A stretch of DNA of 64,000 nucleotides from Nemertoderma westbladi (lineage: Eukaryota > Animalia > Xenacoelomorpha): positions 1 to 64,000 of the forward strand of contig JAUCBJ010007004.1 of NCBI GenBank assembly GCA_032718475.1, given 5' to 3'. Positions 378-50,683 of the stretch are shown piece by piece (within the stretch, counting starts at the first letter, position 1; each line of letters opens with the position of its first letter). The position numbers were made by a program, and so were the translations under genes. The notes under the pieces are model-generated. The model saw only the letters and a program-made list of their open reading frames with translations. It made no database searches and was not told where the DNA came from.

Positions 378-608
378 GGGTTGGGTACTGGAGGGGAGGG
401 GGGGGGTAAAAGTTCGTATATCCCTGGGTATACTGGAGGGGAGGGGGGTGTTTAAAAGTTCGTATATCCCTGGGTACTGGAGGGGAAGGGGTTAAAAGTT
501 CGTATATCCCTGGGTACTGGAGGGGAGGGGGGTTAAAAGTTTGTATATCCCTGGGTACTGGAGGGGATGGGGGGGGGGGGTTAAAAGTTCGTATATCCCT
601 GGGTACTG
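378..608. repeat. Minisatellite, about 41-47 bp unit (AAAAGTTCGTATATCCCTGGGTACTGGAGGGG+polyG), about 5 copies
   Basis: Direct repeats are visible; they explain the spurious ORF 316-690. Confidence 0.9.
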
Positions 609-1156
609 AGAAGATACGCCAGGATTCCGTGTCACCACTTCGAAAGGAATTTTGTTCCCATGTCAACACTTCGAAAAGCCATGTCGACACATGGCTTTTC
701 TTTGTTTTTTATTTGCTTTTTTTTGTTTGTTAACACAACCAATATTACAAAATAATAAAATAAAATAATAAAAACGAACACCAAGTGTTTTATATTTTTT
801 TGTTACCATTCTGCGTAATTCTATCAATTCTGCCCAAATACTAGACAATGTTGGTTCCTTGAATGGTGTAGAGAATTGTATGTACAGTAGTACATCAGTT
901 TTATATACTGTATAGTGTATATAGATAGTTTATATTATTACCGGTTTGTTGTTAGTTATACTATAGTTTTCTTAGTCTCGTAAGATGCTTACAGTATATT
1001 TTAGGTTTGGAAAGTAAACTTACAATAGGCCTACATATGATGTTTCAATTTGGGAAATTCGTGATGATATATTCGCGGTTAGGAATCCTTCCCAGTATTA
1101 CCGGTAAATGATACTACCGGTATTGGTATTTGTAACTATTCAGCCAATATCGTACT

Positions 1157-4100
1157 ATGCCAGTGTATATAAATGACATTCAGTACTTCCCCGATGGAAA
1201 ACAGTTCGTTTATTGCTCTGGATATGACGTCATCATCTGCGAGTCATCGACATTGGAAGAAAAGATAGTGCTGAACACTCGCGGTGTGTTTTGCCGAAGA
1301 TTGGCGGTTTCTAGCGATGGGAACCGAGTAGCAGGTACTGGTAACGGTGACGTGTTTCTATGGGAAGGTAATCAGTCGGGTGGATACGACCTCGTGGTGA
1401 TTCAGAGTAACGAGTTGCCACATGGGGAGGGCCAAACATTGAGGTGGAGAATTCGGTTCAGTCCAACCGATGCTAATACTGTGGCGACATGCGGAGAAAA
1501 TGGAACAATTTCTATAATTCGCACAAAAGATAGAATATCTAGCTACAGAGTAACAACGTGGCTGGGACATCGTCACGCTGTCCGCGACATTAATTTTGAT
1601 AATAACGGCGTTTACTTGGCATCATCTTCGGACAATGGTGAAATAAAAATCTGGGAACCTAAAACTCAGAAAATGGTTCACCTATTAAACATCCACGACC
1701 AGGTTGTTCACAGTATTATATGGGACAAGGATTCAAGCAAAATTATTTCAGCTGGTCATGATGGTCTAATGTGTTGCGAGGTACCCAGTGGAGAGGTGCT
1801 ATGGCAACAGGCGGTAGACTATCGTCGCTTGGCGTGTAGCTCTGATGGGCGGCTGCTAGTAGCTACACGAGGTACTTGGCTAAATGCTGTCATTTTGGAT
1901 GCCGAGGATGGGAGTATCTTAAAGAAAGTCAGCAGATACAGAAGTGGTATTATCAGCATAGCACTCCACCCAGATAATAAATACTTCTTAATAGGTAACA
2001 CTAAAAGCAATATATCTTTATTATACATAATACGATTCATAAAAAAAAATTAATAATGTACCGGTAAATAAATTACATAAATTACATAAATTGGCTTCCT
2101 CCAAATACACAATGCTATGCAAATAAATTTGCCGCAAAGCAATGGCGCTGGCGCAAGCAACTGCAAATTTTCATTGCATTAAGTTGCGTTGTATATTTTC
2201 GAGAAAGCCGTACATAAATAACTTATTATACATAATTTTTAATTTTCATAAATTTTCGGGAAACTTATTTACCTTATTTTTTATAAGCATTTATAAAAAA
2301 CTTGTGAGAAAATTACACTGCGTTATTGGACATGATGCATTGCATTCTGGTTTATAAAAATCTGTTATATAATTTCACTCATTAATCACTCATTAGTAAT
2401 TTAAGGTATAAATTAATTTACCTTTATATTAAATATAACTATATTAATCAAGATAAATATATCGTGTTTGAGGTAATAATGACATTATCAGTCTTTTCAG
2501 ATCAAATATCAGTATTTTGACTAGTTCCCAAACTATTTATGTTTTTTCGTTTATTATATTTAGGAAACGGTGATGGAACCATAAGGTGCATTGACATATT
2601 CAGCATTGAACAGGAAGTTAAATTTAAAAAAACGATATCTGATTTAACAACCGCGATAGAAAGTGCTACAGAATGGAAAGATATCGCGATATACATGGGA
2701 ACAATTGGACCAATTAAGTCTTTGAATCAAAAGGCAATAGGAAAACTCGTAACCAATGCAGTTGATAGTCTTCCTATTGAACTAAAAGAATTATACCTCA
2801 GTCTAGATATTGAAGAAAATTTGAAATTAGACACTATGTTCCTAGACAAGCGCTGGTTTAAAGACCTACAAAAAACCCAGCTGGCAGTGCAAGAATGCCT
2901 TGAGAAGTGTCTATTGTTTAAAGGAGCGGATGATGTTTACTTAATGCCGTCTCAACTGCAAAAATATATACAACAAATAAATATCCCACTTGAAATCCTA
3001 ACTAGGGGACATAAAGCTTTAGTTGCCTACAAAGTAGCTCTCCAGAGAGGAACCACAACAACTTTCAGGTCTAGATTAATGCTTGTTGGTCAGGAGCGTG
3101 CTGGAAAGACAAGTTTAAAAAAAAGTTTAACTCAACAGAAATTTGATGTAGATGAAGCGATTACTGATGGTATTGATGCCAATACTCATTGCGTGATAAA
3201 TATAGACGATTCCACGGCATGGAACTGGAAAGATAAAGGAGCAGAAATTGGGGAAAATCCAGATGTTGTTGTAGCGAAACAGGCCATAAAGACTTTACTT
3301 CTCCAACAGGACATCATACAGTCTGATGCTCGACATATCGATAGTGTAAATAGAAGATTTCGAGCATCTTCAGATCCAACAGCAGAATTATTATCATCCA
3401 CAAGCTCTAAAAAAAAAGTAACAGCAAAAGAAATAGCACATAGAGCAAAGGCTATCTCAGAAAAAAAAGCGTCAGAAATATTTGTGGAAGAGGATGATAA
3501 AGTGAAAGGAAATATTGCCTCCAAGAAAAAGGAAATAAGACATCCTTCATTAACACTTCCACATACAGTTGTTAATGCCATGCACGATTTGTTGAAAAAG
3601 TTTAAAAGCGCTAAGGATATATTGGCTAAGTTGGATGAAGAAGATAATGAACTATCGGTATGTATTTTTGACTTTGGAGGACAAGCAGTATATTATTCCA
3701 CACATCAAATCTTTCTAAGTCATAGAGCAGCCTATATCGTCGTATTTGACCTTAGCCAAAATATCCATGATACAACTAGAGTAATATTCCGTGCACCAAC
3801 AGGTGAGAATGTGGAATATCTGCAGAGTGAACTTACAAATGTGGAGTTTATTGATTTCTGGTTGTCGAGTATATATGCATTCGGATTCTGTCCTGAACGC
3901 CACACATCCCACAGTCCTCCAATATATATAGTTGGTACTCATAAATCGAAGTTAGATGTTAGTTTCACAAATCAATGCAGATTATCTGATAAAATCTTTA
4001 CTGACATTGAAAATTTTATCCGGGATAGACCTTATACGAACAGCTTGGTGCGAGAATATTATGCTATTGAGAACAATATGGAGTCACGATCACTAGAAGA

Positions 4101-5799
4101 TGATGAGCTTGAAAAACTACGCATTGACATTGTCAATGAAATGTTGCAATTTAAAGAAGATATTCCACTGGACTACCTAAAATTTGAGCAATACATTTGT
4201 GAAATGTTAAATCAGGGAAAAACATACATAAATATCAACGATCTTTTAATTAATCTGAGAGAAATACATATTGATCTTATAGATATTGGTTTGTCAACAA
4301 TGCTCAACTTTTATCACGATATCGGAATGATTGTTTATTTCGATGAGGATGTGTTAAATGATTGGGTCATTTTGAACCCACGATGGTTGATGGATATGTT
4401 TTGTAAAGTCATAACTGTTAAAGATAAAATATTGAAAGCTCATCGTCTCCTATGGAAAGATTTAGACGATAATGGTGTGCTGCATGAGGGTCTAATTAAC
4501 TACATGTGGAACGATGTTATTGATGACAAGATGTTCTTATTAAATATTTTGGAACGCTTTGATTTGTTATGCAAAAGAATCATTCCACCAAGTACACTGT
4601 CTACAGAAAGTTCTACACCCGAGCTCAGCTACTATGTTCCATGTCGTCTAAAACCAAGGGCAACAGAGATGAATCATATTATTATGAAACCTACAGATGT
4701 AGAATTCTATTTTGTTTTTAATGGCTTTCTCCCAGACAGCCTATATCATAAGTTGATGAAAAGGACAATTGAATGGACATACATTGTAGCACCCACGATA
4801 ATATCGCCGAGACTCTACAATAGATGTGCCATCATATATTTGGATGAAGAACACGAGCTCGTCATTGAGAATGAAAGAAGATCTTTGTATCGATTAAAAG
4901 TTCAGATTATTCGTAAAGTTGCGAACCAACCTACTCACCAAGGGATAAATGCTGCATCACCACCAGATCATCAACGTGTTAAATTAATTAAACATTTTCT
5001 AGTGAACACATTGAACGACATAGTTGGTTTGACCAGGATGAAAAATGTTACATATGAAATAAAAATTAAGTGTCTCTGTCCAGCCCACTGCCAATCACAT
5101 AATATAAGTTATTGCAAAAACGGCCAATGCCACCATTTTTTAAAACTCGATGACTGTCTTAAAAGTAAAATAATATCGTGTCAATATCATGGAAGTTGTG
5201 ATGTTACTATTTATCAGAAATGGTTTGGCTTGGTTTGTGAAAACAATTTATCATATTTAGAGAAAGTTAACCAGTGCCAAAATGAACTAACTGACAGACT
5301 AGAACCATTAAAACTCTTAATACACCTGGAAAGTAAGTCCGTATTTACAAAAGAAACGCTTGACTACATCAAATCGAAATGTACAAAGTTACGAATGAGT
5401 AGAGCAATTATTGAAGGAATTAAATGGAGATCTTCTGCTGAATATGCAATATTTCTGGAATGCCTGGCAAGTACCAACCAGGTCCATTTAGTTGATTTGC
5501 TGGAAGGCAATTGTGATGCAAATAAAAACCAATTCCACGATATACTGATAACAAATAAAGTTGAATTAGTTGACAACATTGAACTAGACGACATAGTGTT
5601 GGCTTATCTTGTAAGTCACCATGTCCTGACAACTGATATTGCTGATGACATCAGATCACAGAAAACGAACTTGAGTAAGAAAAGTTACCTTATAGATGTT
5701 ATTATGAAGAGAACTCAGGAGGACTTCTATGTATTTTGTGATTGTTTAAAATATACTGGGCAAGACCATTTGGTGGAATTTATGTTGAACAATCAATAA
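1157..5799 (+). CDS. ROCO protein, WD40 repeats - Roc GTPase - COR - CARD - CARD; exons 1157-1994 and 2564-5799, about 1357 aa
   Basis: The donor G|GTAACA at 1994/1995 and acceptor TTTAG|GA at 2563/2564 are both phase 1. They rebuild a WD40 repeat (HPDNKYFLIG-NGDGTIRCIDI). Roc motifs are GQERAGKTS, TDGID, DFGGQ..YYSTHQIFL and VGTHKSK. COR motifs are FYHDIG.IVYF and VILNPRWL. Two ~85-aa death-fold repeats ending F..CL..T.Q.HL are CARD-like. Further upstream exons are possible (acceptor-like ATTCAG at 1143). Confidence 0.88.
1995..2563 (+). other. Spliceosomal intron (569 nt, phase 1) of the ROCO gene
   Basis: GT...AG ends with a pyrimidine tract; removal joins ORF 1157 and ORF 2539 in frame. 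Confidence 0.85.
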
Positions 5800-6294: not shown

Positions 6295-7235
6295 CTACTA
6301 CTACTACTAGGATCGGCATGCTGCATTGCAGCTGCATTTTTAAGAATGCTGTGCCGGCTTATCGACAAAATTGCACCGCCACAACTCCCTATCACCCATG
6401 ACATTTGCTAGATCATCTGCATCTTCAAGGCCAGTGTCCTTTAAGATGCGTCTCAAGAAAGTCATGGGCTGTCCACCATGCTTATTCACTCCATGAGGCT
6501 GCCAAAGTACAAGATTATGCACTGGCTGGTCCTCACGGCGAAAGCAATGTCCTGCAAAGCGGAGGCGATTTTGTTCTAGTGTCAAGCTTGGGGGAGCCAA
6601 TGAGACACCTCCAATGTTATATAGTGTCTGGTTGGAGATGTGTGCATTGTACTTGACACAATGAACCCGGCGTAGCATTCTTGTGAATGTGCCATCCAGA
6701 GATTTGGTGTCCTCAGCAGTTAGAGCCCAGCATGGACTCCCGTAGAGGAGTACTGGAACTACTGCTGCTCTAAATAATCGGACCTTAAGTTTCCGATTAA
6801 TTCTCGGTGACTTCCAAATCCTGGAAAGCCTATTCAAGGCTGCCCATGCCTTTCCCTTACGTATTCGAAGGTCCTCACCTGACTTCCGGATCCATGATCC
6901 CAGGTAACAGAAGTCGTCCACATGCTCAAGCATACCATCCTTTGAGCTTATGCTCATCCGATCAGAGACTTGCTGAGGACTTTCAAAGTTAATTGTCAAA
7001 ATTTTGGTCTTTCTGGAGTTAATAAAAAGACCAACACTAGAAGCAGCATGTTCTAATGAGCTGAGGAGCCGTTGGGCTCCCTCTAGTGATTCTGAGAGTA
7101 CTCCTAAGTCATCAGCAAAGTCTAGATCAGTTAGGTACTTGGCAGGATTTCCTCGACTTCTGGAGCCAGTAGGTGGAGTTATCATCACCCCATCATCATT
7201 ATGATGATCTAAGGACATGCGTAGAACGAAGAACG
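6295..7235 (-). mobile_element. 5'-truncated RTE/RTEX-like LINE (family A), RT C-terminus, (TAG)n tail
   Basis: RT motifs DLDFADD and FCYLGS; near-identical to 42471-43333; 13-bp TSD AATTAATGAAGAA at 6282-6294 and 7236-7248. Confidence 0.9.
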
Positions 7236-8748
7236 AATTAATGAAGAAGGGCAGATTACATGAGTTGATATTTTCATATAAACGTTGCCAAACCATGGCA
7301 CCAGATAGCAGACGTATAGGATTTAAGTATTATGGGCGTATGAGCTGCATATGTATAGTATGTGTATTGTATAATTTAAGTATGTGGAGCGAGCCACGAA
7401 GTTGGCGAAGCGTTATCGAACTGAACTGACACTGTTCAACAGTCTCCCACTAGATTCCCCCATTATTTTGCTTTAATCCGTTCCAGTTGAAAAACTTTGC
7501 AGATATATACTAGGCCCTACAGTACACCTTAGATGCCTTACAAAGGAGGATATTCCATTTTCAGTTCTCCAGAATGCCGTTAGGGGGCGTAATATTTGAG
7601 TCTCATTTTGTTATATAGTCCATACGAGCTGTCAGATAATATTTACTACAGTACAGTAGACCACACTTCGGCTGTTTCTAGATTTGTAATAAGTGTGACT
7701 TTTAGGTCCATTTGTTTGTTTATTTTGGACTATATATAATTATTATTGATATTTTTACTACTGTACAATTTGGCGTAAATAACAAAATTACGAGGGCTAC
7801 TTACTTTGTCTCCTAACGGATCCAAAGTCACCCTCGCCCTGTTTCGGAAAATAAAGTCCGTAAATATACAAGTCGGCTGAGGGAGATAAAGCTGAAAGTG
7901 ATTGTACAGTAATATTCAAGGGGATTTTGTAGCGGGAAAAGCCAGGCTTCGGCACGCGAGACTATTATATTAATTATAAGCCGTCTGGAAGCTTGCCACG
8001 CTGAGGGCGTGAGGAATCGTTTACAGAAAACGAAGACAAGAAAAGGAAGTGATCTGTGCAGTTTTCCATTCTGCCGCTAGAGTGCGAAATGTCCAAAAGT
8101 GAAAACCTTCCACCGTTTCCTTGATTTTAATCAGTTTAAGTTGAGATTTTGCATATACAGTAGTAGTATAAGGAGAACTATCTTCTTATACTACTTACAG
8201 TGCAGTACTGCATGTACGAGAAAACTGGCTGTTTCTTTGTGGAACGGTTCTCCACCTACACCTCTATATTTGCCGCTAGAAGTGGAAATATCTGAAGGTG
8301 ATAACGCTCTCTCGTTTATTAATTTATTATCATGCTAGACAGTAGACCATCCATTTGTTGGGACGGTAATCCATCAGCAATTCTCCAGTCTACAGCAAGA
8401 GGGCTGAAATTGAAACATTTCAGAAATGCCTAAAATAAAATCTAAGAGCCATTTCGCAATATTGTTTCCGTTCTTTCTGATTAATACTGGACGTACCAGG
8501 CACATATTCCAACCCCAATAGTTTATGTGAGGAAAAAAGCAGTCTGCAGTTAACCAGTCTGTCACTAGGAGGTAAGAGTGATTAGAGGACATTTGCTTAT
8601 ATTTTGCTATAATTTATAACATTAGACACATAACATATGTTTATATCACGTGCTGTGCGAATACCTCATTTCGTGTAGGCCTACTAATTCATATGTTTTA
8701 CGTTTTAAGTTTTTAAAAAGAAATCCGCTAAGAAACCTAATTAATTGA

Positions 8749-15947: not shown

Positions 15948-18900
15948 TTAGTCTTTCTTGCGCGGACGGCGTTTACGCAGTTTTTTAAAGCTAGCAAGAG
16001 TCCTTTTCTCTTTGGGGCGAGCCACTTTACGAGGAGGGCTATAACTCCTGGGTGAAGGGTGCAATATGATTGCATCAGAAGGTATGGGATTACGATCGGT
16101 ATATCCGCCGGTCGAAGTACCGGGTTGATTGACATCAACGTCCGGGGAGAGGGGTCTAACGGCTTTGAGAGCTCGTTTCAAGACAGCCGCTCTTACGGGT
16201 TCTTTACGAGTGGTCTGAACGAGGGCCGTGGGTGGACCATAGGCAGTTAGAAACTTCCTTGGTTTAATGGTTCTTTCCAACTCGCGTTCGCGGGCTCTGT
16301 ACTCGTAAGGCCGTCGATATACTTCTTGTAACTCGGGGTGTGAGTTGACAAATAAGTCTCCATAGGCCGGATCTTGACGGATAAAGTTTATTAAGTTGTA
16401 CGAATTGATGTCACTCGGATTAATGCTCCTGAGAAATTTGCGTACATATTTGGTTGAAATACATTCTCCAACACGCTTCAATAGTTCATAACTTGATAGG
16501 CGCGATTTCTGCTCGACGGAGGCAAACAAATAAGGATGGAACGCATAAACTCCTTCGTAAGCGCGTCCAGGATAATAGCGATGGCGTGAATCACAATGTA
16601 AATCAGCGTTCGCTTCCCAAGCTCTGATATAACGTAGTACAATCATTTCATCTACGCTCTCTAAATCATGGTTAAAGGGACAATCAAAGCTGGCGTGTCC
16701 TTTTAATTGACAATGATGGCATTGAGTCATAAATTGGGGGCAGACAGCAAAAATGTGCAAATTATTAAGCCGACAATATGCACAATAGATTTCCATCGAC
16801 GGTTGCTCGTGGAAGTAGGAACAAAGATCGTTGGTGTCCATAGACGTAATATGGTCTCTCGATGCGCACAGCCGACAACGTTGTCTAGAAACATAATTGG
16901 CATGGCGATAATCATACGCAGTAAGACACTGGGGACCTTGATACCATTCCAATATGTAGTCGCTATCGCTACTCCGAGACGTGGGGGGCTGAATCTCTTC
17001 AGATTCTAAACATATGGGTTCGTCTTCCCCTTGTATAGTTGAGGTAGGCGTGGCTGTCTCCTCAAGTGGACCTACCGTCTGAATTTCCACGACAGAATAA
17101 CCTGTGGGGATCCGAGGTCTTTGGATAACCGAGGAATGCAGGTTCATTATACAAATGTCTTTGAAAATAGCAAATCCAGCGCTATCTAACTTCTCCGCAG
17201 CCGAGTCTCTTAAGCTGAGCTTGGTCAAAGCGCGGTCTTTGAATTGGCTATCCATGTTGCGAAACGGGGTTAAAAACCGGCGGAAACATTCAAAGCGGAT
17301 GAATTTATTATGTTCATCTAGCTTAGCGAGTTTGGTCCCAAGGATTAATGGATGGGCGCGTATAGTACGACTGCACACATCGGCTAGCCAACCGGAAAGT
17401 GCGGTGTTTTCGAAGATCGTGTAGATAGCTAAGGAGGGGCGGAATGGAACACTCATGAAGCTATACACGGCGCCAGGTGCGGTCAACGGTCCGTCAAAGT
17501 ATAATCGAGAATAATGGTCTCCGTATACTTGTTGATAGTTGATGGGATTTCCGACCTTGAAATTCCACCCGTATTCCTGAAAGGCAAGATGTCCGATGGA
17601 AGTTCGTTGCACCTTTGTAATGTTGCTAGACGCATTAGCATACATGGTGCGAAAGAAACCTCGGCCTTCGGCCCAAGGAGCTATCAGCTGAGTATCCACG
17701 AAAGGATAGGGGATATTCTCCATATTCCGAAAGTCGTTTTGGAGATCTCCGTAAACAGTTGAGCCGATTTTAATGATTCTTTCGTTGAATAACATCTCGA
17801 GAACGGGCTGGGGTAACATTGATCCATCGATACCCATGGCCGGTTTGCGTTCGGTGTCAATGACGTAACGCTGCGCGAGTTCGAATTGTCCATGTCGGAG
17901 ATTCCTTTGCGTTTCGGTGAGAGTCTCAAAGGAATAATCGATCACGTCGGAACACGCTCGCGTAAACACGTGAGTGGAGCCAGCTAATCTGCGTATGTGT
18001 ATCATGCGCGTAGTTCCTAATTCTCCGATTGGAACGCTACCTTCGTTATCGTAAGTAACAACGCCATACATCTCAATGATATTAAGAGTTTCATTCCACT
18101 CTTTGGTGGCGTTCTCGAGGGTCATCCCTACCGGATGCCACAAGGTGGCGCATTGATTAGCGTCAGGGAGATCACTATACTTCATATATCGAGTGGTATA
18201 CGTCTCCACATTTCCATATCTTTGGATTTTCTCCTCCTCGAATAATACATCTAGATTCCAATGGACTAATCGAGTTTTAATAAATCCATCGAGATTATAA
18301 GGAGGTTCTGTATCCTTCTCTATTCGAGAAACGTTATATGGTTTTCGAAATGAGTTTACCTTTACTAATTGATCCAGATGTTTTTGCAATTGTTCGAGTT
18401 CGACAATGTCCAGAGGATTTATTAGTGGTAGAAACTTTAAATTATGCGTCGGATCTTCTGGTTTTACCATATAATATTGAGTCAGATTAACGTAATAAGG
18501 GTGATCTTTAATTCCATAAAAAGAGTTCTGTAAAGGTCTAGCGCGTATGTTGACATCGTGTACCATACGACGGACAAGATCCGCTCGATTGTCCGGAGGT
18601 TCAACGAGTATACCGTCAACTCGAGCGGCCTCGATTGGCGGACGCTGTAACATAGGAGCGTCAGCGATAAGATTTTGCGATCTTATGCTGATATCAAGCG
18701 GTTGGGGTTGTATCTTTGCGAAAAGTTTGTCTCTGAAATGCGGAACCATCGAGGGATGACGGACGGTTTTAGAGTAGAGATCGGTTATGAGTATCTGAGC
18801 TTCGGGTTGGGCTAAAGCGGCTTCTTCTCTCTCATCCATTTCCGTATGTTTCTCCTCTAGTTGATTTTCCTCCGCTTGTTTCTGTAAGCGTTCTTCTAGA

Positions 18901-20201
18901 AACTCCTGTAGAGAATACGTACGTCCAAGCTCGATGTCCTCTTCGAGGTTTTGGATTTCTCTATCAAACTGCGGCAAGGCTAGCTCTTTCACCGATTGGA
19001 CCTGCTGCTGTAATTTACGTTTCTCTAGAAAATCCTGGGTTCCCTTTCCGATTTTCTGTCGGATGGCGTCTAGAGCGTTTCTGATGACACTCTCCTCGAC
19101 TTCCGTGGCAGGTTGTATCGGAGTTAATCCTGGCCGATTGTAAGGATTAAATGGGGATGTTAGATGCCCGCGTCCCAATCCGGTTAGATAGGATGGTCGA
19201 ATATCTAACGAACCTACCGCTGGAACACCACCGATTAACTGCTCGGGTAACACCAAATCTTTGAACAGTGAATATAACTCGGGAGAATCAGTGATACTGT
19301 TAGGATCAAGAGTTTGAGGTCTCACGGGGAAATGGGGAGGCCTGACCGAGTATTCCGGAACTCTGATCATGGGTTTATTTAGCGATCGTTTTAGACGGGC
19401 GATCGTAGGTGATACGTCGAACAGGTTTCGCTCGAAACTCCCGTAAGTATAACGCGTAAAACTGTGTTTAGCACAACGTCTCCGCGGATGTTTATGTCTT
19501 TCCGTTTGCTGGTTAGGTCTAGGACATGAGTCACAATAATACCAAAGACGTACGTCCTGCAGAGGAAACGCGGGTGATCGTTCTCCAGTTTTGCAATACT
19601 CTTCCATTTGTTCAAAGCTGTCCGGGACAACAGGCAGTGGACGATCTGCGGTAAGATACATCATGGTGAAATAGAGTCGTTTGAGTTCTACCATGGGATC
19701 GTGATGTATACCTTGAGGATATCGAGTCTCTAGGTTCTGTTGACTGGCAATATTGAGATAGGTTTCTCGCAAAAATTCCAAGTAGTCGTTGAAGTTGATA
19801 CGCTTATCGGGTTCTTCAACGTTTTCTCTGTCGAGTAGGTTGCGAATAGAGTTCTCGTGTTCTATTCTCGGTTTATCATTACGATTCCGCTGGGCATGAT
19901 ATTTAAATAAAACCATTTCCCTTTCGGTGTCTACATCATCAGTATCATGTAAATCGGTAGGATGGCCGGTAGTTAAGAAGTCCATATACGTACCATTACG
20001 ATTCGTATAGCGAGCGGTGAATTTTCTATAGTCCAATTCACGCGTAAGTTGTTCTTGGGACATCGGCGGTTCGATATAACGACCATCGTCCTCCGTAATA
20101 GTCGGATCGGCTTCACCGCGTATCAAGCTATCCACAAACGCTTGTAAAGGTAGAGTATATCGCTCCCTGATACCAAGGTCATCTTCTATCAATTCCGTCA
20201 T
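15948..20201 (-). CDS. Accessory ORF3 of the BEL/Pao element (1417 aa): coiled coil, DEDDy/RNase D-like 3'-5' exonuclease, three CCHC knuckles, basic C-terminus
   Basis: The ORF is intact and lies between pol and the 3' LTR. Exonuclease motifs are VVTYDNEG (ExoI), LFNERIIKIG...YGDLQNDF (ExoII), FVDTQLIA, SIGHLAF..YG..FK and YTIFE (ExoIII-like). Knuckles are CRLC-x4-H, CAYC-x5-H-x4-C and CHHC-x4-H-x4-C. It ends KKLRKRRPRKKD. No signal peptide or TM segment seen, so it is not env-like. Confidence 0.8.
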   Translation of the reverse strand: MTELIEDDLGIRERYTLPLQAFVDSLIRGEADPTITEDDGRYIEPPMSQEQLTRELDYRKFTARYTNRNGTYMDFLTTGHPTDLHDTDDVDTEREMVLFKYHAQRNRNDKPRIEHENSIRNLLDRENVEEPDKRINFNDYLEFLRETYLNIASQQNLETRYPQGIHHDPMVELKRLYFTMMYLTADRPLPVVPDSFEQMEEYCKTGERSPAFPLQDVRLWYYCDSCPRPNQQTERHKHPRRRCAKHSFTRYTYGSFERNLFDVSPTIARLKRSLNKPMIRVPEYSVRPPHFPVRPQTLDPNSITDSPELYSLFKDLVLPEQLIGGVPAVGSLDIRPSYLTGLGRGHLTSPFNPYNRPGLTPIQPATEVEESVIRNALDAIRQKIGKGTQDFLEKRKLQQQVQSVKELALPQFDREIQNLEEDIELGRTYSLQEFLEERLQKQAEENQLEEKHTEMDEREEAALAQPEAQILITDLYSKTVRHPSMVPHFRDKLFAKIQPQPLDISIRSQNLIADAPMLQRPPIEAARVDGILVEPPDNRADLVRRMVHDVNIRARPLQNSFYGIKDHPYYVNLTQYYMVKPEDPTHNLKFLPLINPLDIVELEQLQKHLDQLVKVNSFRKPYNVSRIEKDTEPPYNLDGFIKTRLVHWNLDVLFEEEKIQRYGNVETYTTRYMKYSDLPDANQCATLWHPVGMTLENATKEWNETLNIIEMYGVVTYDNEGSVPIGELGTTRMIHIRRLAGSTHVFTRACSDVIDYSFETLTETQRNLRHGQFELAQRYVIDTERKPAMGIDGSMLPQPVLEMLFNERIIKIGSTVYGDLQNDFRNMENIPYPFVDTQLIAPWAEGRGFFRTMYANASSNITKVQRTSIGHLAFQEYGWNFKVGNPINYQQVYGDHYSRLYFDGPLTAPGAVYSFMSVPFRPSLAIYTIFENTALSGWLADVCSRTIRAHPLILGTKLAKLDEHNKFIRFECFRRFLTPFRNMDSQFKDRALTKLSLRDSAAEKLDSAGFAIFKDICIMNLHSSVIQRPRIPTGYSVVEIQTVGPLEETATPTSTIQGEDEPICLESEEIQPPTSRSSDSDYILEWYQGPQCLTAYDYRHANYVSRQRCRLCASRDHITSMDTNDLCSYFHEQPSMEIYCAYCRLNNLHIFAVCPQFMTQCHHCQLKGHASFDCPFNHDLESVDEMIVLRYIRAWEANADLHCDSRHRYYPGRAYEGVYAFHPYLFASVEQKSRLSSYELLKRVGECISTKYVRKFLRSINPSDINSYNLINFIRQDPAYGDLFVNSHPELQEVYRRPYEYRARERELERTIKPRKFLTAYGPPTALVQTTRKEPVRAAVLKRALKAVRPLSPDVDVNQPGTSTGGYTDRNPIPSDAIILHPSPRSYSPPRKVARPKEKRTLASFKKLRKRRPRKKD

Positions 20202-20244
20202 ATCTGCTATCTGAGTTTATTAATATCAATATGAGTTAATTTTT

Positions 20245-20398
20245 TAGGCAAGCGGGCGTCGCTGCCTACTAGGCTTTTGCCCCCGGACAGTGGGTTTCTC
20301 AGCGCCGATGTACCGCTGTCGCAGTGTTTACGCCAACATGTAGCAACAGCACGACAACGATAACCGGCACAAGTCCCACCACTGTCCGTCCCAAAGGC
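20245..20398 (-). other. Structured RNA element: a ~125-nt extended hairpin plus a 24-nt hairpin upstream of ORF3
   Basis: On -, the pairings are CGGACAGUGG/CCACUGUCCG, GUGCCGG/UCGGCGC and UAUCGUUGUCGU/GCGACAGCGGUA, with many G-U pairs. A second stem UAGGCAGCG/CGCUUGCCUA follows. Confidence 0.7.
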
Positions 20399-23300
20399 TT
20401 GAATCCACTTGAGGTTATCTCGGTAGAGTTAGGGCTATTTTACAATTGCGATTAGCTACTGTAAACACACTTTAGTAGTAACATTCACCTATAAACGCAC
20501 AAATTCCATACAATCATTACTTACTGCACACATGCATGCCATTTGTCCGTTAGTCAGTGTCTTCCAGAATGTCACGTTATTACTATGTATCCTTGGATAC
20601 TAATAGTGCTCTATGTATACTCTTATGCTACGCAATGGGGCAAGCTTTTATTGTTCTTTTAACTTGCTTCTAATTCTAGCGTGGGTGTTGCCATGGTGAC
20701 ATTATGGAAAACTAGCGGTAGAATTAGGGTAATTCTCATGCATACAGATCTGGGATGTTATTTAATAGTAATTCTTTAGTTGTCAATATCCTCTTTATGC
20801 ATGATTTTATAAATTTTATCGGCTATTGACTATATGTTGGAGATTCTCGCACTCTAATACACTCAATATGAATCTCCGCTCCCATGATCTATTAATTACT
20901 GGAATTTTGGGAATGTTATAAATTGCACAAAATGACAATTTATGAAATCCATTTGAATATGAATTTAAATTTATTCCCGTGAATTTTATTATTTGATGTT
21001 AAATTGATACAAATTTTATTCCAGAGCATATCTGGGGACTTAGGATCCTTAATTCTATAAAATAGTCCTTCTAAGAATATGGGTAAATACTGCGATATCT
21101 TAATTGACTAGAAATTTTAAAGGATCTGGATTTTACAGATTTTAATAAATATTAAATTAATATTTAGGATGGGCACCGATTTATTCCAGAACTTGTCTGG
21201 GGACGTTAACCACTGATTCTAGAATTTGTCTTTCAAGTATATCGGTGGGTGCCACGATATCTTAATCGACTAGAATTACAGATGGTCAAAAAATTTAACA
21301 GATTTGTTTGCGATTTACGCTACTGTTAGAGGGACATCACGCTACTATATGTATTATTTGTTATAAGGTAGAAGAGCAATATCGCACGAAGCAATGTCAG
21401 TGCGAAGAGGCAAGTCGTTTCCAAGGTCTACCCAGAGCTTGGTTTAGCCGAGACACGAGGATCTGAACTTTGCATTCCTAATACTCTGCCTACCAATAAT
21501 ACTTAAATATAGTAGTGGCTTTATTGTACTTTAAAAAGTACGGACATTTCATCTTACTGTAGTCACGTATTTATAATATGATACGGACAGTAAGGGAAGA
21601 GAAAAATAATTATTTCTCGCCGTCGCACTAAATATATATTATAGTAATTATGTACGTAATAAACACTAATATATTGCACTAATCTACTAAATAATCCCTA
21701 AAATAACATTTTACTAAATAAAATTAAATAAAAACGATTATAATAACGTACATAATAACATTTACATATAAAATGTAATAAAAACAGATAAAATAATATA
21801 GACATACACCCACTCCAGACGTACTACGTTGAAGAGTCCCTAGATGTTTGAGGTATTAGGGAGGTGGTCGTGGGAAGGGTTTCTTGCCTTCCATAGTTTC
21901 CGGAGAGTTCCCTGTCTCTTTCCAGCAAACATAAACGACCAACTGGGCGATTGAGTTGTTGCGTCTCAAAGATTATCCCGGGTTTCTTGAAGTTACGCCG
22001 CATTACGACGAGTTCTACTGAGCGCACTAGACCATCCTCCGAGATGTGCGTCTCGATGATACGACCGATCTGCCACCGTCTACGTGGAAGGTCCGGATCT
22101 ACAATAAGGACCATGTCTCCGGCGCTGACATTTTCCTGCTGCGCAAACCACTTAGTTCGAAGTTGTAGTGTGGGCAGATAATGTTTCTCAAAATGGTCAG
22201 CGAAACGACGGGATAGCAACTGCATAAGCTGCCAAGTTCGACGACAGTATTCATCTCCATCGGCAATCTCGGATTGTGGGAGCATGGCTACAGGTTTCTT
22301 AAGTAGGAAGTGCGCGGGTGTTAGCGCTTCCAGGGAGTCGAGACTCGATGAGACTGGCATAAGCGGTCTCTCGTTAAGATAGGCAGCGATTTCTTCCATT
22401 AACGTCCGTAGAAGTTCGTCGGTGAGATATGCGCGGCACGGCACTATAAAGTGAAATGCGGTCTTGACACTTCGAATTAATCTCTCCCAACTTCCTCCCC
22501 ACCAAGGGGCGTCGGCGGCGTTAAAGGTCCAGCTAGACGCCGTTATCCGTAGCTGGTCGTCCACCTGTCTTTGATTCCAGTCCTTTACGTAAGCCTGAAT
22601 TTCGTTGTTGGCACCAATGAAGTTCGTTCCCTTATCGGATCTCATCGTATTGCTAGTGCCGAAACGAGCGATCTGTCGTCGTAAACATAAGACGAAGCTG
22701 TTAGTAGATAGATCGTTCACCATATCGAGATGGATAGCTCTACAAGTCATGCAGACAAAGATTACACACCATCTCTTGATTATAGTTCTAGCACGATACA
22801 CTTCAATAGGGCCAAATAAATCCACACCAGTATTAGTAAAGGGTGGTTCATAAAAGCTTACTCGTTCCCTAGGTAATTCTGCCTCTCGCTGTGTTAAAGG
22901 CCTACTGAATACTTTCCTACAAGGTATGCAGTTCCTAAGAACTTGATTCAGAGCTCTACGCGGTTTATGAAAATAATAGCGGGTTCGAATTTCGCTAAGA
23001 ACTCGTTCTCTACCAGCATGATACAGTTTACTGTGAACATCTACAATCATCTTGATTTGTACTTCAAGATTACTAATGAGTATAGGGAATTTAGTATCAA
23101 AGGATAATGGGGCGTTTGTAAGCCTTCCTCCAACACGTATTAACCCATCTATCATTGTGCTAGAGAAGCGATCCCTTAAGCGCATCTGCGGATTTCTTAA
23201 TAGCAGAAAATACCTATCGGAATCCTCATAGCATTGTAGGAGTCTCAGTAGCTGCTTATTAGTTTCTTCATGCTCCTGGTAGCTGATCTTCTCCTTTAGA

Positions 23301-26300
23301 AACCGGTCTGATATCTTGTACTTAGGTAGATCTTTAATAACATGAACTTGCGCAGATGTCACTGGAGCAGGATCATTAGTGGTCTGCGTCCTGGAGTAGT
23401 GATGGTGAAAACATCTCTTTAAGTATGTGACGGCTTTACAGAGACGATTCCAGGAACTGTAATGATGCAGTGCTCTCTGCAGCAGGGGTGAGATTCCTTG
23501 CGAGACGTCTGGTATCCCCGATTTCCAATCTCTGTCTCTAATTTCCACAACAGATTTGTTTGTGGCGAGGGATTGTGGATCCGAAGTATCGTTTGCGGCA
23601 GTATGTAATACAGATAGATCGATTGTCGGTTTAAATAACTTCGATTTACTTGTCCGAATTTTGGGTTTGACTTTCTCCGCTCCCTTGGCTTGTCTAATCT
23701 CAGCCGTAGTAAGGTGAGGAGGCCATTCATCCTCTTCCTTGCTCAAGAAGTCGGGTCCACCCAACCAGTCAGGGGTATCTATCAGTTCCTGTGGAGTTGC
23801 TCCTCTGGAGGCGATGTCAGCTGGGTTAATCGTACCAGGGCAATGTCTCCATTGATCTATCGTTGTGCGACTAAGAATAATGGCTACTCTGTTAGTAACA
23901 AAGACGCTGAACTGACAGACTTCATTCGTTATATATTCCAATACAAGTAAAGCGTCGGTCCAATAAACAGTTTTCTCCAGTGGATAATCGATCTGTTCTG
24001 TTACATTCCGTCCGATAGCTGTAGCGTATAAAGCTGCTTTTAACTCCGCCCGAGGAACCTTAAGCTTGTTGTTAATCAATGCCTTAGAGGTAACCAAGGC
24101 AACTTTGATTCCATCCGGAGTTTCGACTCGCAGGTATGCTACTATACCGATTCCCATATCGCTGGCATCTCCAAATACATGGAGTTGATAGGAATACGTA
24201 GGGAGAACATGGCCAAAATATGAACGAGAAATTATAAAGTTCTCGATGGCAGGTAGCGAGTCCTCTCATTTCATCCATTTCTTTAATAGTTCTCCCTTGA
24301 GTGGATCGTCCCACGAGTGGTTTTCCAGCCACATTTGTTGTACTAAACTCCGAGCAATCAATATAACTGGGCTAATAAATCCCAAGGGATCGAAATAAGT
24401 GCTCAGAATACTTAAACAAATCCGTTTGGTCCGAACTGGATTATCTCGCTGTTTTAACTGAAAAAATAGGATGTCTCTTTCTGTGTCCCACTTCAAGCCA
24501 AGCGTCTTGGTTTCCGGAAGATCATCATGTATTAAGTCGAGATCTTTTGATCCCCGGTCTTCTACCGATATTGCTTCCAGAAACTCACGGGAGTTGCTGG
24601 TGAACTTCGTCAATCGAAATCCACCTCTTTTCAAACACTCAACCGTTCCTTTCGCGACATCAATGGCTTCCTTTACTGATGGAAGGGACTTTAAATTGTC
24701 GTCCATGTATATGTCTCGTTTGATGTTATCTATCACCTCTTTAGAGAAGGCATCCCTGTTGTCATCCGCAGTGGTACGGACCACTGAGCAGGCGTTTGAA
24801 GGGCTTGATATAATCCCAAAGGCCTGGATGGTCATCCAATACTCTACCGGTTTCTGGTTGAGATCTCCTTCAGGCCACCACAGGAATCTTAGGCTGTCTC
24901 TATCCCGATCCAACGCCTTGACTTGTAGGAACATTCCTTCTATATCGGAGGCGAACGCGATGGAATATTGTCTTAATCTTAACAGTATTCCCAACAAAGA
25001 TTGAAGCAAGTTGGGTCCTGGTAACAATTCGGAATTAAGGGATTGACCCATATATAGGGCGGAGCCATCAAATACGACCCGTACTTCATGGGGTTTACCG
25101 GGTTTGGGAACATAATGATGTGTTAGATAATAAGTCCTTTCAGTTATTGGAGTTCCTTCCGGTACTCGCTCCGCATATCCCTTTGTGATAAATTTCTTCA
25201 ACTGAGTTTGGTACATTTCCTTAGCTGAAGCGTTTGCCGTAAGACGTCGATGTAATTGATTGATTCTTTTCTCAGCCAAGGGTCTGTTATTTATAAATCT
25301 GGGTTCACGTTTTCGGAAGGGTAGTCCGATTTCATATCTACCTTGATCTTTTAAAAAACGTGTGGTTGTTTCCTGGATTTGCTTGGCTCTTTCTTCTTCT
25401 ATCGACAGGGCTTTGTCGTATGAATTGGGTTCTACCAATTCTTGGGTAAAGAATCGTACGGCGAGTTCGTCCCGAGTTCTAGCGTTGTAGCGCTCTACCT
25501 CGTCATTAAGTTCGTCATTATAAATAATGGATTCCGTTGGGCGAATCAGTTGACATAGGTTCGTTTGGTTTTTCCAAGTTTGGTTTTCGGTAAGTAGATC
25601 CATTGTGTTCTCTTCATCGAAGAGTTGGTAGATGTCGTCATTATCTGAGGAGTATGGTGTTCCCTCAGTTGGTTCGTCCACATCGCTGCTTTCCTCTTCC
25701 CAATCACTTACCTGATCTATTTGTTCGTGTGGCATTCTCTCTTCGAGAGTTCTACGGGAAGGGCCAGTAAAGTACCAACCTACTCTAGTTCTTACCGCAT
25801 AGGTTTGCAGTGGTTGTGGTTGAGCAGGCCGTTTCTCTAATGTTTCGAGCGCCTCGTGCGCGTTTTGGCCGATAAGTATTTGCACTCCATGATAATCTGT
25901 CTGGAATCGAGGTATCTTAAGATGTTGGACGCTCTCATCTTCGTCCCAATTATAAAGGTCTGCTTGAGTAGTAGCAAAGTTCTTTATAGCAACCATTTTT
26001 ACTGACCTTATACCTTGTGTTCCTAACTTATCCTGGGGGGTGGACAACACACCTACATAGTAATCTGCCGTTAGGGTAGATTTCCAAACCTGCATAATTC
26101 CTGACATATTCAATTTAGTCCGGAACTTGGGTTGTCCAGTAAAAATATCTTCGGCTAGTTCTTGATCGATGAATGTTCCTGTGCTGCCGGAGTCAAGGAG
26201 AGCGTTCACTATGTAGCTTTTTTTAAGACCGTGAACTCTTACCTGAACTACAGGAAATTCTCTTATTCCTACGTTGGAAGCTGGAGCTTTCCAAGATGGT

Positions 26301-27957
26301 TGTTTGGCGAAAGTAGTTTGGGGAAACTCATCGTTGATGTCCTTTTCGTGAGTAAGTGCTCGATACACCGCGGTGTTTATTAGATAACAGGATTCATTGG
26401 CGTCGGAGAATTCGTCAGTATAGAATCCTTCCATCTCAGACTCTTGATCGGTGTCATTTACGTCACTAAATTGGACATGTAGTTCGGGCTCACTTACCTG
26501 ACTCTGTTTGTCTCGTTCAAACTCACTGTGTAACAAGATGTGATGTTTCGCGCCACACTTTTCACACTTTAGGTCGGAGTAACAGGTTTGCCGTTGGTGT
26601 CCTGGTCTGAGGCAATTATAGCATAACCGCTTGTCCCACACAACGGTACGTCTGTCGATAAGTGATTTCTTTAGAAATTCCGCACACGCACTCAAACGGT
26701 GGGTCCCGTCGCACAGCGCACAGTTAGGTTTTATGTTACTTATTTTACCTTGGGTAGTCTGATGCACTCTCGTTCTTTCTTCGGGCTTTCTTCCGCGCAT
26801 TCTACTAGGAGACTGAGGAGGGGTCTTAGCAATCTGTTCTCTCCTATTGTTGGTTCGAGCCTTGTATTTACTTACGTCCTTTGAGGTTTTGTCAACATAA
26901 TAAGATCGGTCTGTATCTTTCCCGCTGTCCTCTTCTTGGGAAGCTTGGCTTTCGCCGTCGTCAGTGTAACACACCGGTGTTACCCTTCTCCTAGAAGTGG
27001 GTTTCTCACTTACCTTATTTTCCGATGTTTTCTCTCTGGACTGCTTGATGAGTTGTAGTTTGACTTCGCCATCTAAGAAAGACATGAGATCAGCCATGGT
27101 AGGACTTCGTCGTTGTTGTTCATTCATGTACAACACTTTCTTGTCCCAGCGTGTACATACTCCACCCTTTGGTAAAGTAGAGACTACGGCTCCAATAACC
27201 ATGGAACTCTGATATTCGTGCGACTTACCTAACCAGTCCAGTTGTCTACAGATCTCTTGAATTTCATCGGAAAACTCTATAATCCCACTACTAAGGAAGT
27301 GTCGGGGGGCTACTAATTTGGCGTACAAATACTTAGCTATGTTATCCTTGTTACCATACCTGATGTTTAATGTATCCCAAACTTGTCTTAATCCTTCTGG
27401 ATGTCCAATAAACTTTAACGCCATTAACTTGGGAGGTCCTTCCAAGCACTTGATGAGGAATCTAAGTTTCTCTCCGTTAGATAGTACAGAGTTCTGTATG
27501 CTATCTTTGTAATATTCGTTGAAAGGTAACCATTTCATCTCATCTCCATTGAATTTGACGATCTCTCCCACTTTGACAGCTTGGCGGGCTTCTGTTCTAG
27601 CCATCTGACGCGTAAAGCTTTCTTGGGCCATCGTGTTATTTAATATCGAATTATCGGTATATAAATTTCTCGGATCTGTTGAAGATATATAAACAGTTAT
27701 AGATAATCCAGTAACTCAATAATATAGTATAATAGCTGACAGTCAAGTTACAGAACTGCACACAGACCTAACACAACTGACAACTGCACAACCTCCTACC
27801 TACCGTACCTGTCCAACCGGTAGGCCTACACCTGATACAGCAACACTAGTACTGTACTGTAGTTTTTCCTTTCTTGTACTACCGTACTATCCCAGTGGCA
27901 TGGCCTACTATATGTCTCACACAATTTCCCAACACCTCCCACAGTTTTATAAACTTT

Positions 27958-28285
27958 TTAGTTTTCAAATCCATATCGCTTTGGGGGCCTAGACATTCGG
28001 CCTGAACGCGTAACGACCGTGGGTGGAGCAACCCCTATTGGTATCTCATCTTCATCATCTGTAGGGTCTATTTCATCGTATGATGTTTCATCATCTGTAC
28101 TATCAACCTCCGTTTCCGATTCGATATCAATTACCCTTTCAATTTCATTATTCGTATTTAATGCTGACTCAACCTGATTTTCTGCATGCGAAACTTTCAT
28201 CGACTTTCTAACATCTTGAAGGTGTCGGCGTATTCCTTTCACTATCACTGAACGTTCCTGTACTTGATCGACTCTATGAGGTCCC
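27958..28285 (-). pseudogene. Out-of-frame integrase C-terminal remnant (GPY/F-like) of the nested element
   Basis: Reads GPHRVDQVQERSVIVKGIRRHL...TRSGRMSRPPKRY, a typical integrase tail. Confidence 0.75.
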
Positions 28286-31359: not shown

Positions 31360-31390
31360 AACGATTTAGGTTAAACAATAGATCAGTATA

Positions 31391-31402
31391 GCCCGGTTAG
31401 CT
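31391..31402 (-). promoter_or_regulatory. Primer-binding site complementary to a tRNA 5' end (Lys/Ile-like)
   Basis: The + strand reads GCCCGGTTAGCT directly against the 5' LTR. Animal tRNA-Lys begins GCCCGG(C/A)TAGCT and tRNA-Ile(AAT) often begins GGCCGGTTAGCT. Confidence 0.65.
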
Positions 31403-49900: not shown

Positions 49901-50683
49901 GTTTCTATAGGTAGTGTCTTGTCATATATTTTCCTTGTAGGGCTGACCTCGATGTTGGGTGGCTGCCCAAGCAACTATTTGTCTGTGCCATCTGTGTGGT
50001 CTGGTTGGTTAATCACTTCTGGCACGAAGGAAGCACACCACTGAGCTAAAACTTTCATTACGGGGGTTTACGGGGTAGCTGATTTGATTTCCGTTGCCAG
50101 TTTTACGGTTTGATGGAATCTAGTCTCTCTGTCGGTTGTCTGTCTTTCTTACAATTTGACGGACAGAACGTCATACGGAAAACAGCGATAACTCGAGAAC
50201 TAAAAGAGGTCTCGCTAAGCGGTTTTCAGATTTGAAATCCACATTAAAATTCTGCTATCGATTAAATAAAAAACAAATATTTGAAACTTTCACATTGATG
50301 GGGGGGGGGGGTGTGTACTCCCCCGTAAGGCCGTAACTGTACCCCAAATGCAATCCCCACCACATCAAGGGAAAGTGTACTGTAAAGCACATGCTGTGTA
50401 GGCCTACTGTATAAACAACATACATACACTACATATGCTTAAATAATATACAATACAATGTTAATTCAAAGTCCACTTTCAATTAGCTACTGTAGCACAC
50501 ACACCGTACATTAATTACAAGTAATTTATTGAGCCAGATGGGGTAAACAGTTAGTTGATTTGGTAATCATTGTACCTCTATCACTAGCCTACTGTTCCAT
50601 TCATTATGTGCTGTGGGTGTGGGGCTCATCTTGGGAGAATTGATATTTTACTCCAATCTACAATCTAATATTTTTTCAACAGA

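What the first reader, a model, noticed from the sequence alone, without database searches (positions are those of the whole stretch)
1157..5799. ROCO protein with N-terminal WD40 propeller and tandem C-terminal CARDs
Seen: two ORFs join through a phase-1 intron into WD40-Roc-COR-CARD-CARD, with a ~160-aa charged insert between Roc G2 (TDGID) and G3 (DFGGQ). Known: LRRK2 has C-terminal WD40 and a kinase, DAPK1 has Roc-COR-death, and MFHAS1 has LRR-Roc-COR; APAF-1 combines WD40 sensor, NTPase and CARD. Inference: this is a mirror-image APAF-1/NLR-like sensor-switch-effector that uses a GTPase, a candidate innate immune or cell-death receptor.
Basis: partly seen in the sequence, partly recalled or inferred. 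Interest (0 to 1): 0.7.

Follow-up and report, generated by a model that had tools for sequence, protein, structure and literature searches.

The report
ROCO switch with WD40, twin CARDs
This intact two-part animal gene joins a WD40 propeller, an LRRK2-type Roc-COR switch and two cell-death adaptor (CARD) domains; it is a new combination within a large, much-shuffled invertebrate family and likely acts as an inside-the-cell immune or cell-death receptor, though no function has been tested.

Summary
Joining 1157-1994 to 2564-5799 (GT-AG, phase 1) gives one 1357-aa frame. No RNA run was listed, but only this join completes the seventh WD40 repeat. Both CARDs pass Pfam's cut-off and model as APAF-1/caspase-9-like folds; Roc-COR models confidently. 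The G2-G3 insert is not special: 97 of the 97 best hits have it. The core belongs to a marine-invertebrate ROCO clade ('neuralized PATS1'-like) with heavily shuffled ends: 48 of 83 scanned relatives carry a death fold, 23 more another immune-type domain, none WD40. A mussel protein has an independently built propeller-Roc-COR-CARD-CARD. The 'mirror APAF-1' is an analogy only: there is no STAND ATPase, and repeat-switch-effector is the ordinary ROCO order, already proposed as an immune design (Kaur 2021; Trichoplax Roc-COR/CARD, Civiero 2014). New point: the guanine-reading G4 aspartate is kept in 46 of 46 cores outside this gene's subclade but only 6 of 28 inside it, so 'GTPase' is uncertain. 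The scan noted related designs on other DNA (bacterial and protist WD40-Roc-COR-effector, invertebrate Roc-COR-CARD), not this gene. Verdict: new variant of a known kind; likely immune/cell-death receptor, untested.

The parts
1157..1994 (+). Coding exon 1: WD40 repeats 1-6 and the first half of repeat 7
   Evidence: Pfam WD40 E 9e-20; 464 PDB sequences at E<=0.001, the 60 shown being WD40 proteins; seven repeats laid out by eye. GC3 0.44 against 0.31 in exon 2, Fisher p 9e-5
1139..1143 (+). Acceptor-like TTCAG just before the ATG; an upstream (UTR or coding) exon is possible
   Evidence: Sequence; not tested
1995..2563 (+). Phase-1 GT-AG intron, 569 nt, inside WD40 repeat 7
   Evidence: not shown in RNA
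2564..2615 (+). Start of exon 2: second half of WD40 repeat 7
   Evidence: Raises the repeat's score against 120 of 120 WD40 proteins compared with exon 1 alone
2616..2967 (+). About 120-aa linker, predicted helical at low confidence, no known family
   Evidence: No Pfam match at E<=10; no match among 261 Roc relatives; pLDDT mostly under 50
2968..4095 (+). Roc domain with the clade's pre-Roc helix: G1 at 3088, G2 at 3163, G3 at 3670, G4 at 3937 (THKS, no Asp), G5 near 4066
   Evidence: Pfam Roc E 5.8e-14; motifs against 81 relatives; model matches LRRK1/LRRK2/CtRoco, best E 3.7e-19
3178..3645 (+). G2-G3 insert: predicted hairpin and long helix, a disordered charged middle (about 3367-3555), two helices
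   Evidence: long in 97 of 97 top hits and in 89 of 97 measurable further representatives
4153..5055 (+). COR domain (COR-A about 4153-4575, COR-B-like about 4633-5055)
   Evidence: Pfam COR-A E 1e-12; high pLDDT and fold match to C. tepidum COR 3dpt, TM 0.76 by target length
5056..5235 (+). Cys/His-rich small domain after COR, probably zinc-binding (inferred)
   Evidence: Two cysteines kept in 74 of 81 aligned relatives each; matches 21 of 240 proteins then held, all Roc relatives
5254..5511 (+). CARD 1
   Evidence: Pfam CARD 37.5 bits; best PDB sequence match CED-4 CARD E 3e-4; six helices, pLDDT about 90
5533..5799 (+). CARD 2 and stop codon
   Evidence: Pfam CARD 42.0 bits; Z 15.1, rmsd 1.6-1.8 A over 90 residues to caspase-9 and APAF-1 CARDs; 32% identical to CARD 1

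Best explanation
This is one two-exon gene (join inferred from sequence) for a 1357-residue WD40-Roc-COR-CARD-CARD protein that likely works as a cytoplasmic immune or cell-death receptor: the propeller would sense or dock on a target, the Roc-COR core would act as a nucleotide switch, and the paired CARDs would then recruit a CARD-bearing caspase or adaptor. Shown: the domains, their order, intact G1-G3 motifs, and descent from a clade of invertebrate ROCO proteins with freely exchanged ends. Inferred from the bacterial LRR-Roc-COR protein CtRoco (abstract): nucleotide loading would swing the N-terminal repeat domain off Roc-COR about a linker hinge and change the dimer/monomer state, here exposing or clustering the CARDs. 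Inferred from RIG-I/MDA5 2CARD and APAF-1 (established knowledge): exposed CARDs would nucleate a CARD-CARD assembly. The nucleotide may not be GTP alone, because the G4 aspartate position is serine.
For: Domains. Join. Family context: of 83 relatives scanned (picked for long flanks from 141 new representatives), 48 carry Death, DED or CARD; 23 more carry TIR, caspase, HEPN, GT4, NACHT, macro, OTU or trypsin; 12 carry neither. Six of the 83 have a caspase fused on, including Bcl-2-Roc-COR-caspase in Owenia, which suggests the output this protein would reach through CARDs. N-terminal partners vary (Neuralized, ankyrin, NHL, LRR, FN3, SH2). A mussel protein (KAL3889163.1) has an NHL-like N-terminus, Roc-COR and two CARDs and is rejected as the query's sister (AU p 6e-6), so the design arose at least twice. 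Print: bacterial repeat-AP-GTPase-COR-effector systems predicted as counter-invader (PMC8195603, section read); sponge and coral AP-GTPase+COR+Death/DED/caspase rows in its supplements; brown algal ROCOs as candidate immune receptors (PMC11378527, passages).
Against: No expression, ligand, partner, paralog count or selection data. None of the papers read shows an invertebrate ROCO of this clade acting in immunity by experiment; the one expression datum is a 'neuralized pats1' transcript strongly down in infected clam tissue (table row). The 83 relatives were chosen for long flanks, which inflates the share with extra domains. The WD40 repeats are not near-identical (no internal DNA repeat), unlike fast-shuffling sensor repeats of fungal NLRs (recalled). 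The closest orthologous group (Neuralized-Roc-COR-Death-TIR) is conserved across phyla, which fits a fixed signalling role as well as pathogen sensing. G4 lacks Asp in the clade alignment, although the pairwise alignment to LRRK2 instead pairs a downstream Asp with it by a three-residue gap.
Confidence: 0.55

Rival explanations
1. One protein, but a constitutive signalling or trafficking scaffold, like LRRK, MFHAS1 or DAPK: the WD40 domain localises it to a host complex and the CARDs link it to developmental apoptosis or stress signalling, with no sensing of invaders.
For: The nearest named group is conserved from molluscs to amphioxus; WD40 repeats are divergent, with no sign of repeat shuffling; characterised animal ROCOs act in trafficking, cytoskeleton and cell death (passages).
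Against: The query sits on a long branch (1.0 changes per column against a median of 0.41) with both ends replaced, no relative above about 36% identity over the core, and the clade's flanking domains are mostly immune or conflict types.
Confidence: 0.22
2. One protein that acts as a brake or decoy: the CARD pair soaks up caspases or adaptors, and the altered nucleotide site makes it a weak or dead switch.
For: G4 Asp is missing; CARD-only inhibitors are known (recalled); CARD 2 resembles caspase-9, CED-3 and RAIDD CARDs.
Against: G1 Lys/Thr, G2 Thr and G3 DxxG are intact; loss of the G4 Asp is shared by most of the subclade, including conserved orthologs, so it is not decay of this copy.
Confidence: 0.11
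3. Two separate genes, or a Roc-COR-CARD-CARD gene with another first exon, next to a free WD40 gene.
For: No RNA evidence for the join; exon 1 has higher GC3 than exon 2; no database protein with WD40 on this core was found.
Against: Exon 2 begins with the missing half of WD40 repeat 7 directly after a strong acceptor, in the right phase; read unspliced, exon 1 runs into AT-rich sequence and stops after 20 codons.
Confidence: 0.07
4. A recent, non-functional shuffling product.
For: Long branch; repeat-rich neighbourhood; no close relative.
Against: 4,074 coding bases without a stop or frameshift, intact splice sites and conserved motifs despite about 65% divergence from the nearest relatives.
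Confidence: 0.05

Closest known systems
Neuralized-Roc-COR-Death-TIR proteins ('neuralized PATS1' of Saccoglossus; Aplysia MyD88-like ROCO, PMC9334734)
   Same: Closest core (33-35% identity over about 750 aa, E to 4e-124); same long G2-G3 insert, pre-Roc helix, Cys-rich domain and relaxed G4; same 18-row clade (SH-aLRT 99); grouping with them is not rejected (AU p 0.48).
   Different: Neuralized is replaced by WD40 plus a linker, and Death-TIR by CARD-CARD; the query is on a long branch and its exact sister is unresolved.
Trichoplax adhaerens ROCO repertoire (Civiero et al. 2014, PMC4104024)
   Same: Roc-COR flanked by CARD, death, TIR and repeat domains in an invertebrate (passages and figure legend).
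   Different: WD40 does not occur in that paper's text (0 occurrences); the figure itself was not seen, so domain order and CARD number there are unknown to me.
Prokaryotic AP-GTPase+COR counter-invader systems (Kaur et al. 2021, PMC8195603)
   Same: N-terminal repeats, Roc-COR switch, variable C-terminal effector; the supplement has 41 occurrences of BetaPropeller+AP-GTPase.
   Different: Bacterial; short G2-G3 segment and G4 Asp in the bacterial rows examined here; no COR+CARD row found (0 occurrences; one file was cut when stored). The query's core groups with animal proteins, so its WD40 was likely gained separately.
Sinanodonta woodiana KAL3889163.1 (unannotated database protein)
   Same: Predicted propeller-Roc-COR-CARD-CARD order, long insert.
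   Different: N-terminus resembles NHL-type, not WD40, repeats (by likeness to relatives with weak NHL hits); separate bivalve subclade (AU p 6e-6); G4 Asp kept.
APAF-1 / CED-4 and NLRs (STAND ATPases)
   Same: WD40 or other repeat domain, nucleotide switch and CARD in one chain; CARD 2 superposes on APAF-1 CARD (TM 0.89 by target, rmsd 1.5 A).
   Different: Switch is a Ras-like Roc-COR, not NB-ARC/NACHT; order reversed; one propeller rather than two and two CARDs rather than one (APAF-1 layout recalled); ring assembly is not expected from ROCO precedent.
RIG-I / MDA5 tandem CARDs
   Same: Two adjacent CARDs; top Foldseek rows for the pair, at E 1e-3 to 4e-3.
   Different: CARDs are C-terminal, there is no helicase, the relative orientation of the two CARDs does not match (rmsd 15 A; model pTM 0.50), and sequence identity is 14-18%.
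LRRK1/2, DAPK1, MFHAS1
   Same: Roc-COR core.
   Different: No kinase, no LRR; long insert; G4 Asp absent.

Membership tests
ROCO proteins | Roc domain (Ras-like P-loop fold) | tested here: met
   Pfam Roc 52.8 bits against cut-off 27; model matches LRRK/CtRoco
ROCO proteins | COR domain directly after Roc | tested here: met
   Pfam COR-A 48.6 bits against 35.3; fold match to 3dpt/3dpu
ROCO proteins | Nucleotide-dependent dimer/monomer or conformational cycle | not testable with these tools
   Needs biochemistry
GTP-specific TRAFAC GTPase | G1 GxxxxGK[ST], G2 Thr, G3 DxxG | tested here: met
   All present and matching the clade columns
GTP-specific TRAFAC GTPase | G4 [NT]xxD aspartate that reads guanine | tested here: not met
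   THKS; Asp in 62 of 81 aligned relatives; 6 of 28 in the query's subclade against 46 of 46 outside. A gapped alignment to LRRK2 offers a downstream Asp. Role of this Asp: PMC7952092 passages
GTP-specific TRAFAC GTPase | GTP binding and hydrolysis | not testable with these tools
   Needs assay
CARD (death-fold superfamily) | Profile match above curated cut-off, each repeat | tested here: met
   37.5 and 42.0 bits against 23.9
CARD (death-fold superfamily) | Six-helix death fold | tested here: met
   Model pLDDT 85; Z 15.1 for CARD 2; CARD 1 has six or seven helices but is spanned by few rows of that search
CARD (death-fold superfamily) | Homotypic CARD-CARD binding | not tested
   No partner known
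WD40 seven-bladed propeller | WD40 repeats, seven blades | tested here: inconclusive
   WD40 match is clear; only two repeats score strongly, seven are counted by eye; not folded
APAF-1 / NLR (STAND) | NB-ARC or NACHT ATPase domain | tested here: not met
   No such Pfam match at E<=1; the NTPase is Roc
LRRK / DAPK / MFHAS1 subfamilies | Kinase domain and/or LRRs | tested here: not met
   None in either exon
Neuralized-Roc-COR-Death-TIR orthologous group | N-terminal Neuralized and C-terminal Death-TIR | tested here: not met
   Absent
Neuralized-Roc-COR-Death-TIR orthologous group | Core falls in the group's clade | tested here: inconclusive
   In the wider 18-row clade; union with the 8 Neuralized rows neither shown nor rejected (p 0.48)

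The most novel reading that the evidence does not exclude
Invertebrates carry a second, ROCO-based class of NLR-like receptors, and this gene is an independently invented apoptosome trigger: a WD40 sensor releases tandem CARDs through a Roc-COR switch that, in this subclade, has given up guanine specificity and runs on (or senses) another nucleotide.
Probability: 0.18. Interest if true: 0.78.

Novelty: new variant of a known kind. Interest (0 to 1): 0.45.

Why it matters
If the receptor reading holds, invertebrate innate immunity has an overlooked receptor class parallel to NLRs, built on the LRRK2-type switch, and propeller-Roc-COR-CARD-CARD arose at least twice. A kinase-free ROCO with a CARD output gives a simple read-out (CARD clustering, caspase activation) for how Roc-COR turns nucleotide state into signal, an open question for LRRK2. 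The subclade-wide loss of the G4 aspartate is a directly testable hint that some ROCO switches are not GTP-specific.

Tried and rejected
RNA test of the junction: no RNA holder was listed, so no reads were laid. No whole genome is held, so paralogs and selection could not be examined; within the window the gene is single. Complex prediction of exon 1 with the start of exon 2 was not available, nothing was folded. The protein atlas could not read this sequence; a stand-in (P0291) gave only leads under 0.9, among them mollusc Roc-COR-HEPN/Death clusters, a sponge-rich cluster with CARD in 26% of members and bacterial WD40-Roc clusters. Search for the same architecture: WD40 query against longer proteins gave generic, mostly bacterial-type WD40 proteins at about 20-38% identity, none of the 120 listed matching the Roc-COR core; CARD-region search gave nothing at E<=0.1 among 281 candidates; exon 1 matched none of 261 Roc relatives. 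These searches saw only the best 120 of 126, 120 of 127 and 150 of 5604 hits, so the architecture may exist elsewhere. Idea that the WD40-Roc linker is a hidden death domain: no Pfam or relative match, low-confidence model; left open. Idea that the insert is unique: rejected. Idea that the query is an ortholog of the mussel or amphioxus Roc-COR-CARD proteins: rejected (AU p 6e-6 and 8e-7; groups named after a first tree was seen, quick tree, 40 of 74 rows). Idea of horizontal origin from bacterial WD40-Roc-COR: not supported, the core nests among animal proteins, though no bacterial WD40-type ROCO was in the tree. Literature searches listed no paper describing WD40-Roc-COR-CARD-CARD or the G4 change; subscription journals are mostly missing from that library, and none of the searches was aimed solely at G4 in invertebrate ROCOs except.
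Full report
1. Observation. Two open frames lie at 1136-2053 and 2521-5799 on the + strand. Splicing GT 1995 to AG 2563 gives a 4,074-base frame, 1357 aa, one stop, phase 1. The intron is 25% GC with stops in all frames; exon 1 is 45% and exon 2 35% GC. No RNA run was listed, so the join was tested by sequence. 25 GT/AG pairs give an open frame, but the intron cuts the seventh WD40 repeat, which allows a test: the repeat made by the proposed join scores a mean 53.8 against 120 database WD40 proteins, higher than the unspliced read-through in 117 of 120, higher than five other acceptors in 118-120 of 120, and above all 30 shuffles of the exon-2 residues (max 48.1). A small home-made HMM agreed only weakly (2.0 bits, first of 26). 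I put the one-gene reading at about 0.9. An acceptor-like TTCAG at 1139-1143 leaves an upstream exon possible.

2. Domains. Pfam finds WD40 in exon 1 and Roc, COR-A and CARD in exon 2; each CARD passes the cut-off alone and they are 32% identical. A model of the pair has pLDDT 85 but pTM 0.50, so each domain is firm and their arrangement is not. CARD 2 superposes on caspase-9 and APAF-1 CARDs (Z 15.1, rmsd 1.6-1.8 A); Foldseek rows were all CARD-type among the top, none at E<=0.001. A model of exon 2 on an 82-row alignment (pLDDT 74, pTM 0.71) is confident over Roc-COR and the Cys-rich domain, poor over the linker and the middle of the insert, and matches LRRK1, LRRK2 and CtRoco.

3. Family. 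The best relatives are marine-invertebrate proteins named 'neuralized PATS1' or uncharacterised, 33-35% identical over the core. All 97 top hits have the long G1-G3 segment (154-247 aa), against a median of 51 in the 20 measurable of the next 23 hits; so the insert marks a clade. A full HMMER search found 5604 representatives at E<=0.001 and listed 150. Of 141 new ones I scanned the 83 with long flanks: 48 carry Death, DED or CARD (6 CARD), 23 more carry TIR, caspase, HEPN, GT4, NACHT, macro, OTU or trypsin, 12 neither; none carries WD40. Named examples include Bcl-2-Roc-COR-caspase (Owenia), Roc-COR-caspase (Lingula), Roc-COR-CARD (amphioxus) and CARD-FN3-Roc-COR-TIR (Amphiura). Trees of the core without the insert (74 rows FastTree; 40 rows IQ-TREE quick) place the query on a long branch in a clade with the Neuralized-Roc-COR-Death-TIR orthologs and echinoderm expansions. 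The mussel protein with an NHL-like N-terminus and two C-terminal CARDs lies in another subclade (AU p 6e-6), so the layout is convergent. Exon 1 has higher GC3 than exon 2 (0.44 against 0.31, p 9e-5), which fits, but does not prove, a separate origin of the propeller.

4. Nucleotide site. G1, G2 and G3 are intact. The G4 position that reads guanine is Asp in 46 of 46 cores outside the query's subclade and in 6 of 28 inside it (Asn 10, Glu 5, others 7; the query has Ser). Changing this Asp alters base choice in Ras and contributed to ATP use in SpoIVA (PMC7952092, passages). Against this, the pairwise alignment to LRRK2 reaches a downstream Asp through a three-residue gap, and ROCO base recognition was not modelled with a ligand. 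The switch probably still binds a nucleoside triphosphate; which one is open.

5. Mechanism. Shown: repeat domain, linker, Roc-COR, Cys-rich domain, two CARDs in one frame. Inferred: as in CtRoco, where GTP drives monomerisation and swings the LRR domain away about the linker (abstract), nucleotide state would couple the propeller to the oligomer state of COR and so to exposure or clustering of the CARDs, which would recruit a CARD-caspase or adaptor (established behaviour of APAF-1, RIG-I and NOD-type CARDs, recalled). Relatives that carry the caspase in the same chain point to that output. Ligand, partner and biological role are untested. Confidence 0.55; rivals are a constitutive scaffold (0.22), a decoy (0.11), separate genes (0.07) and a dead gene (0.05).

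6. What is known. Roc-COR with CARD and death domains in Trichoplax (PMC4104024, passages and legend); ROCO-TIR, ROCO-Death-Neuralized in Aplysia, suggested as a new GTPase-linked TLR cascade (PMC9334734, passages); LRR-Roc-COR-TIR and kinase-Death-TIR ROCOs in sea anemones (PMC5094078, passages); brown algal ROCOs as candidate immune receptors, with the remark that WD40 repeats occur N-terminally in some ROCOs (PMC11378527, passages); bacterial repeat-AP-GTPase-COR-effector systems (PMC8195603, passages, section 15 and supplement searches), whose tables include BetaPropeller+AP-GTPase and sponge/coral AP-GTPase+COR+Death, but no COR+CARD (one file cut). PMC2575513 (passages) has no mention of Roc. 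PMC4769524 gave one table row. Ten searches listed no paper on this exact architecture. It works like a ROCO-type sensor-switch-effector; it is a ROCO protein; it is not a member of the APAF-1/NLR family.

7. Verdict. Real gene, correct anatomy, new domain combination within a known and partly described kind. Interest 0.45: the single gene is one more shuffle in a large family, but the family itself seems little studied, the layout is convergent, and the G4 change is a testable oddity.

Noticed in passing
window 39876-37333 and 14703-13417, - strand: A xanthine dehydrogenase/aldehyde oxidase-like gene, apparently intronless, is split in its MoCo-binding domain by a 22,663-bp LTR retroelement (37337-14675) with 1195-bp LTRs 99.7% identical and a 5-bp target duplication, so the insertion is very recent.
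   Followed up: partly
window 15948-33888, - strand: Inside that element lie BEL/Pao gag-pol frames (21824-27715), a Gypsy-like gag/RT pair (28274-31365) and two long frames with no Pfam match (15948-20216, 1422 aa; 31552-33888, 778 aa); 22.7 kb is long for one element, so nesting or extra cargo is likely.
   Followed up: no
database relatives P0001-P0031, P0241-P0261: The G4 aspartate of Roc is relaxed across the whole Neuralized-Roc-COR-Death-TIR subclade, most often to Asn (10 of 28), the change that switches Ras to xanthine nucleotides.
   Followed up: partly
P0277 (Owenia CAH1786849.1), P0266 (Lingula XP_013407220.1): Bcl-2-Roc-COR-caspase and Roc-COR-caspase fusions, grouping together in the tree.
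   Followed up: no
P0327 (Mercenaria XP_053379695.1): A CARD inserted inside the Roc domain, after G3.
   Followed up: no
window 382-608: G-rich tandem repeat, 41-bp unit, about 5 copies, 550 bp upstream of the ATG.
   Followed up: no
window 6340-7329, - strand: LINE-type reverse transcriptase fragment 540 bp downstream of the stop codon, with related pieces at 41484-49974.
   Followed up: no
window 51069-52487, 55228-55794, 63154-64000: Long open frames that are simple tandem repeats.
   Followed up: no
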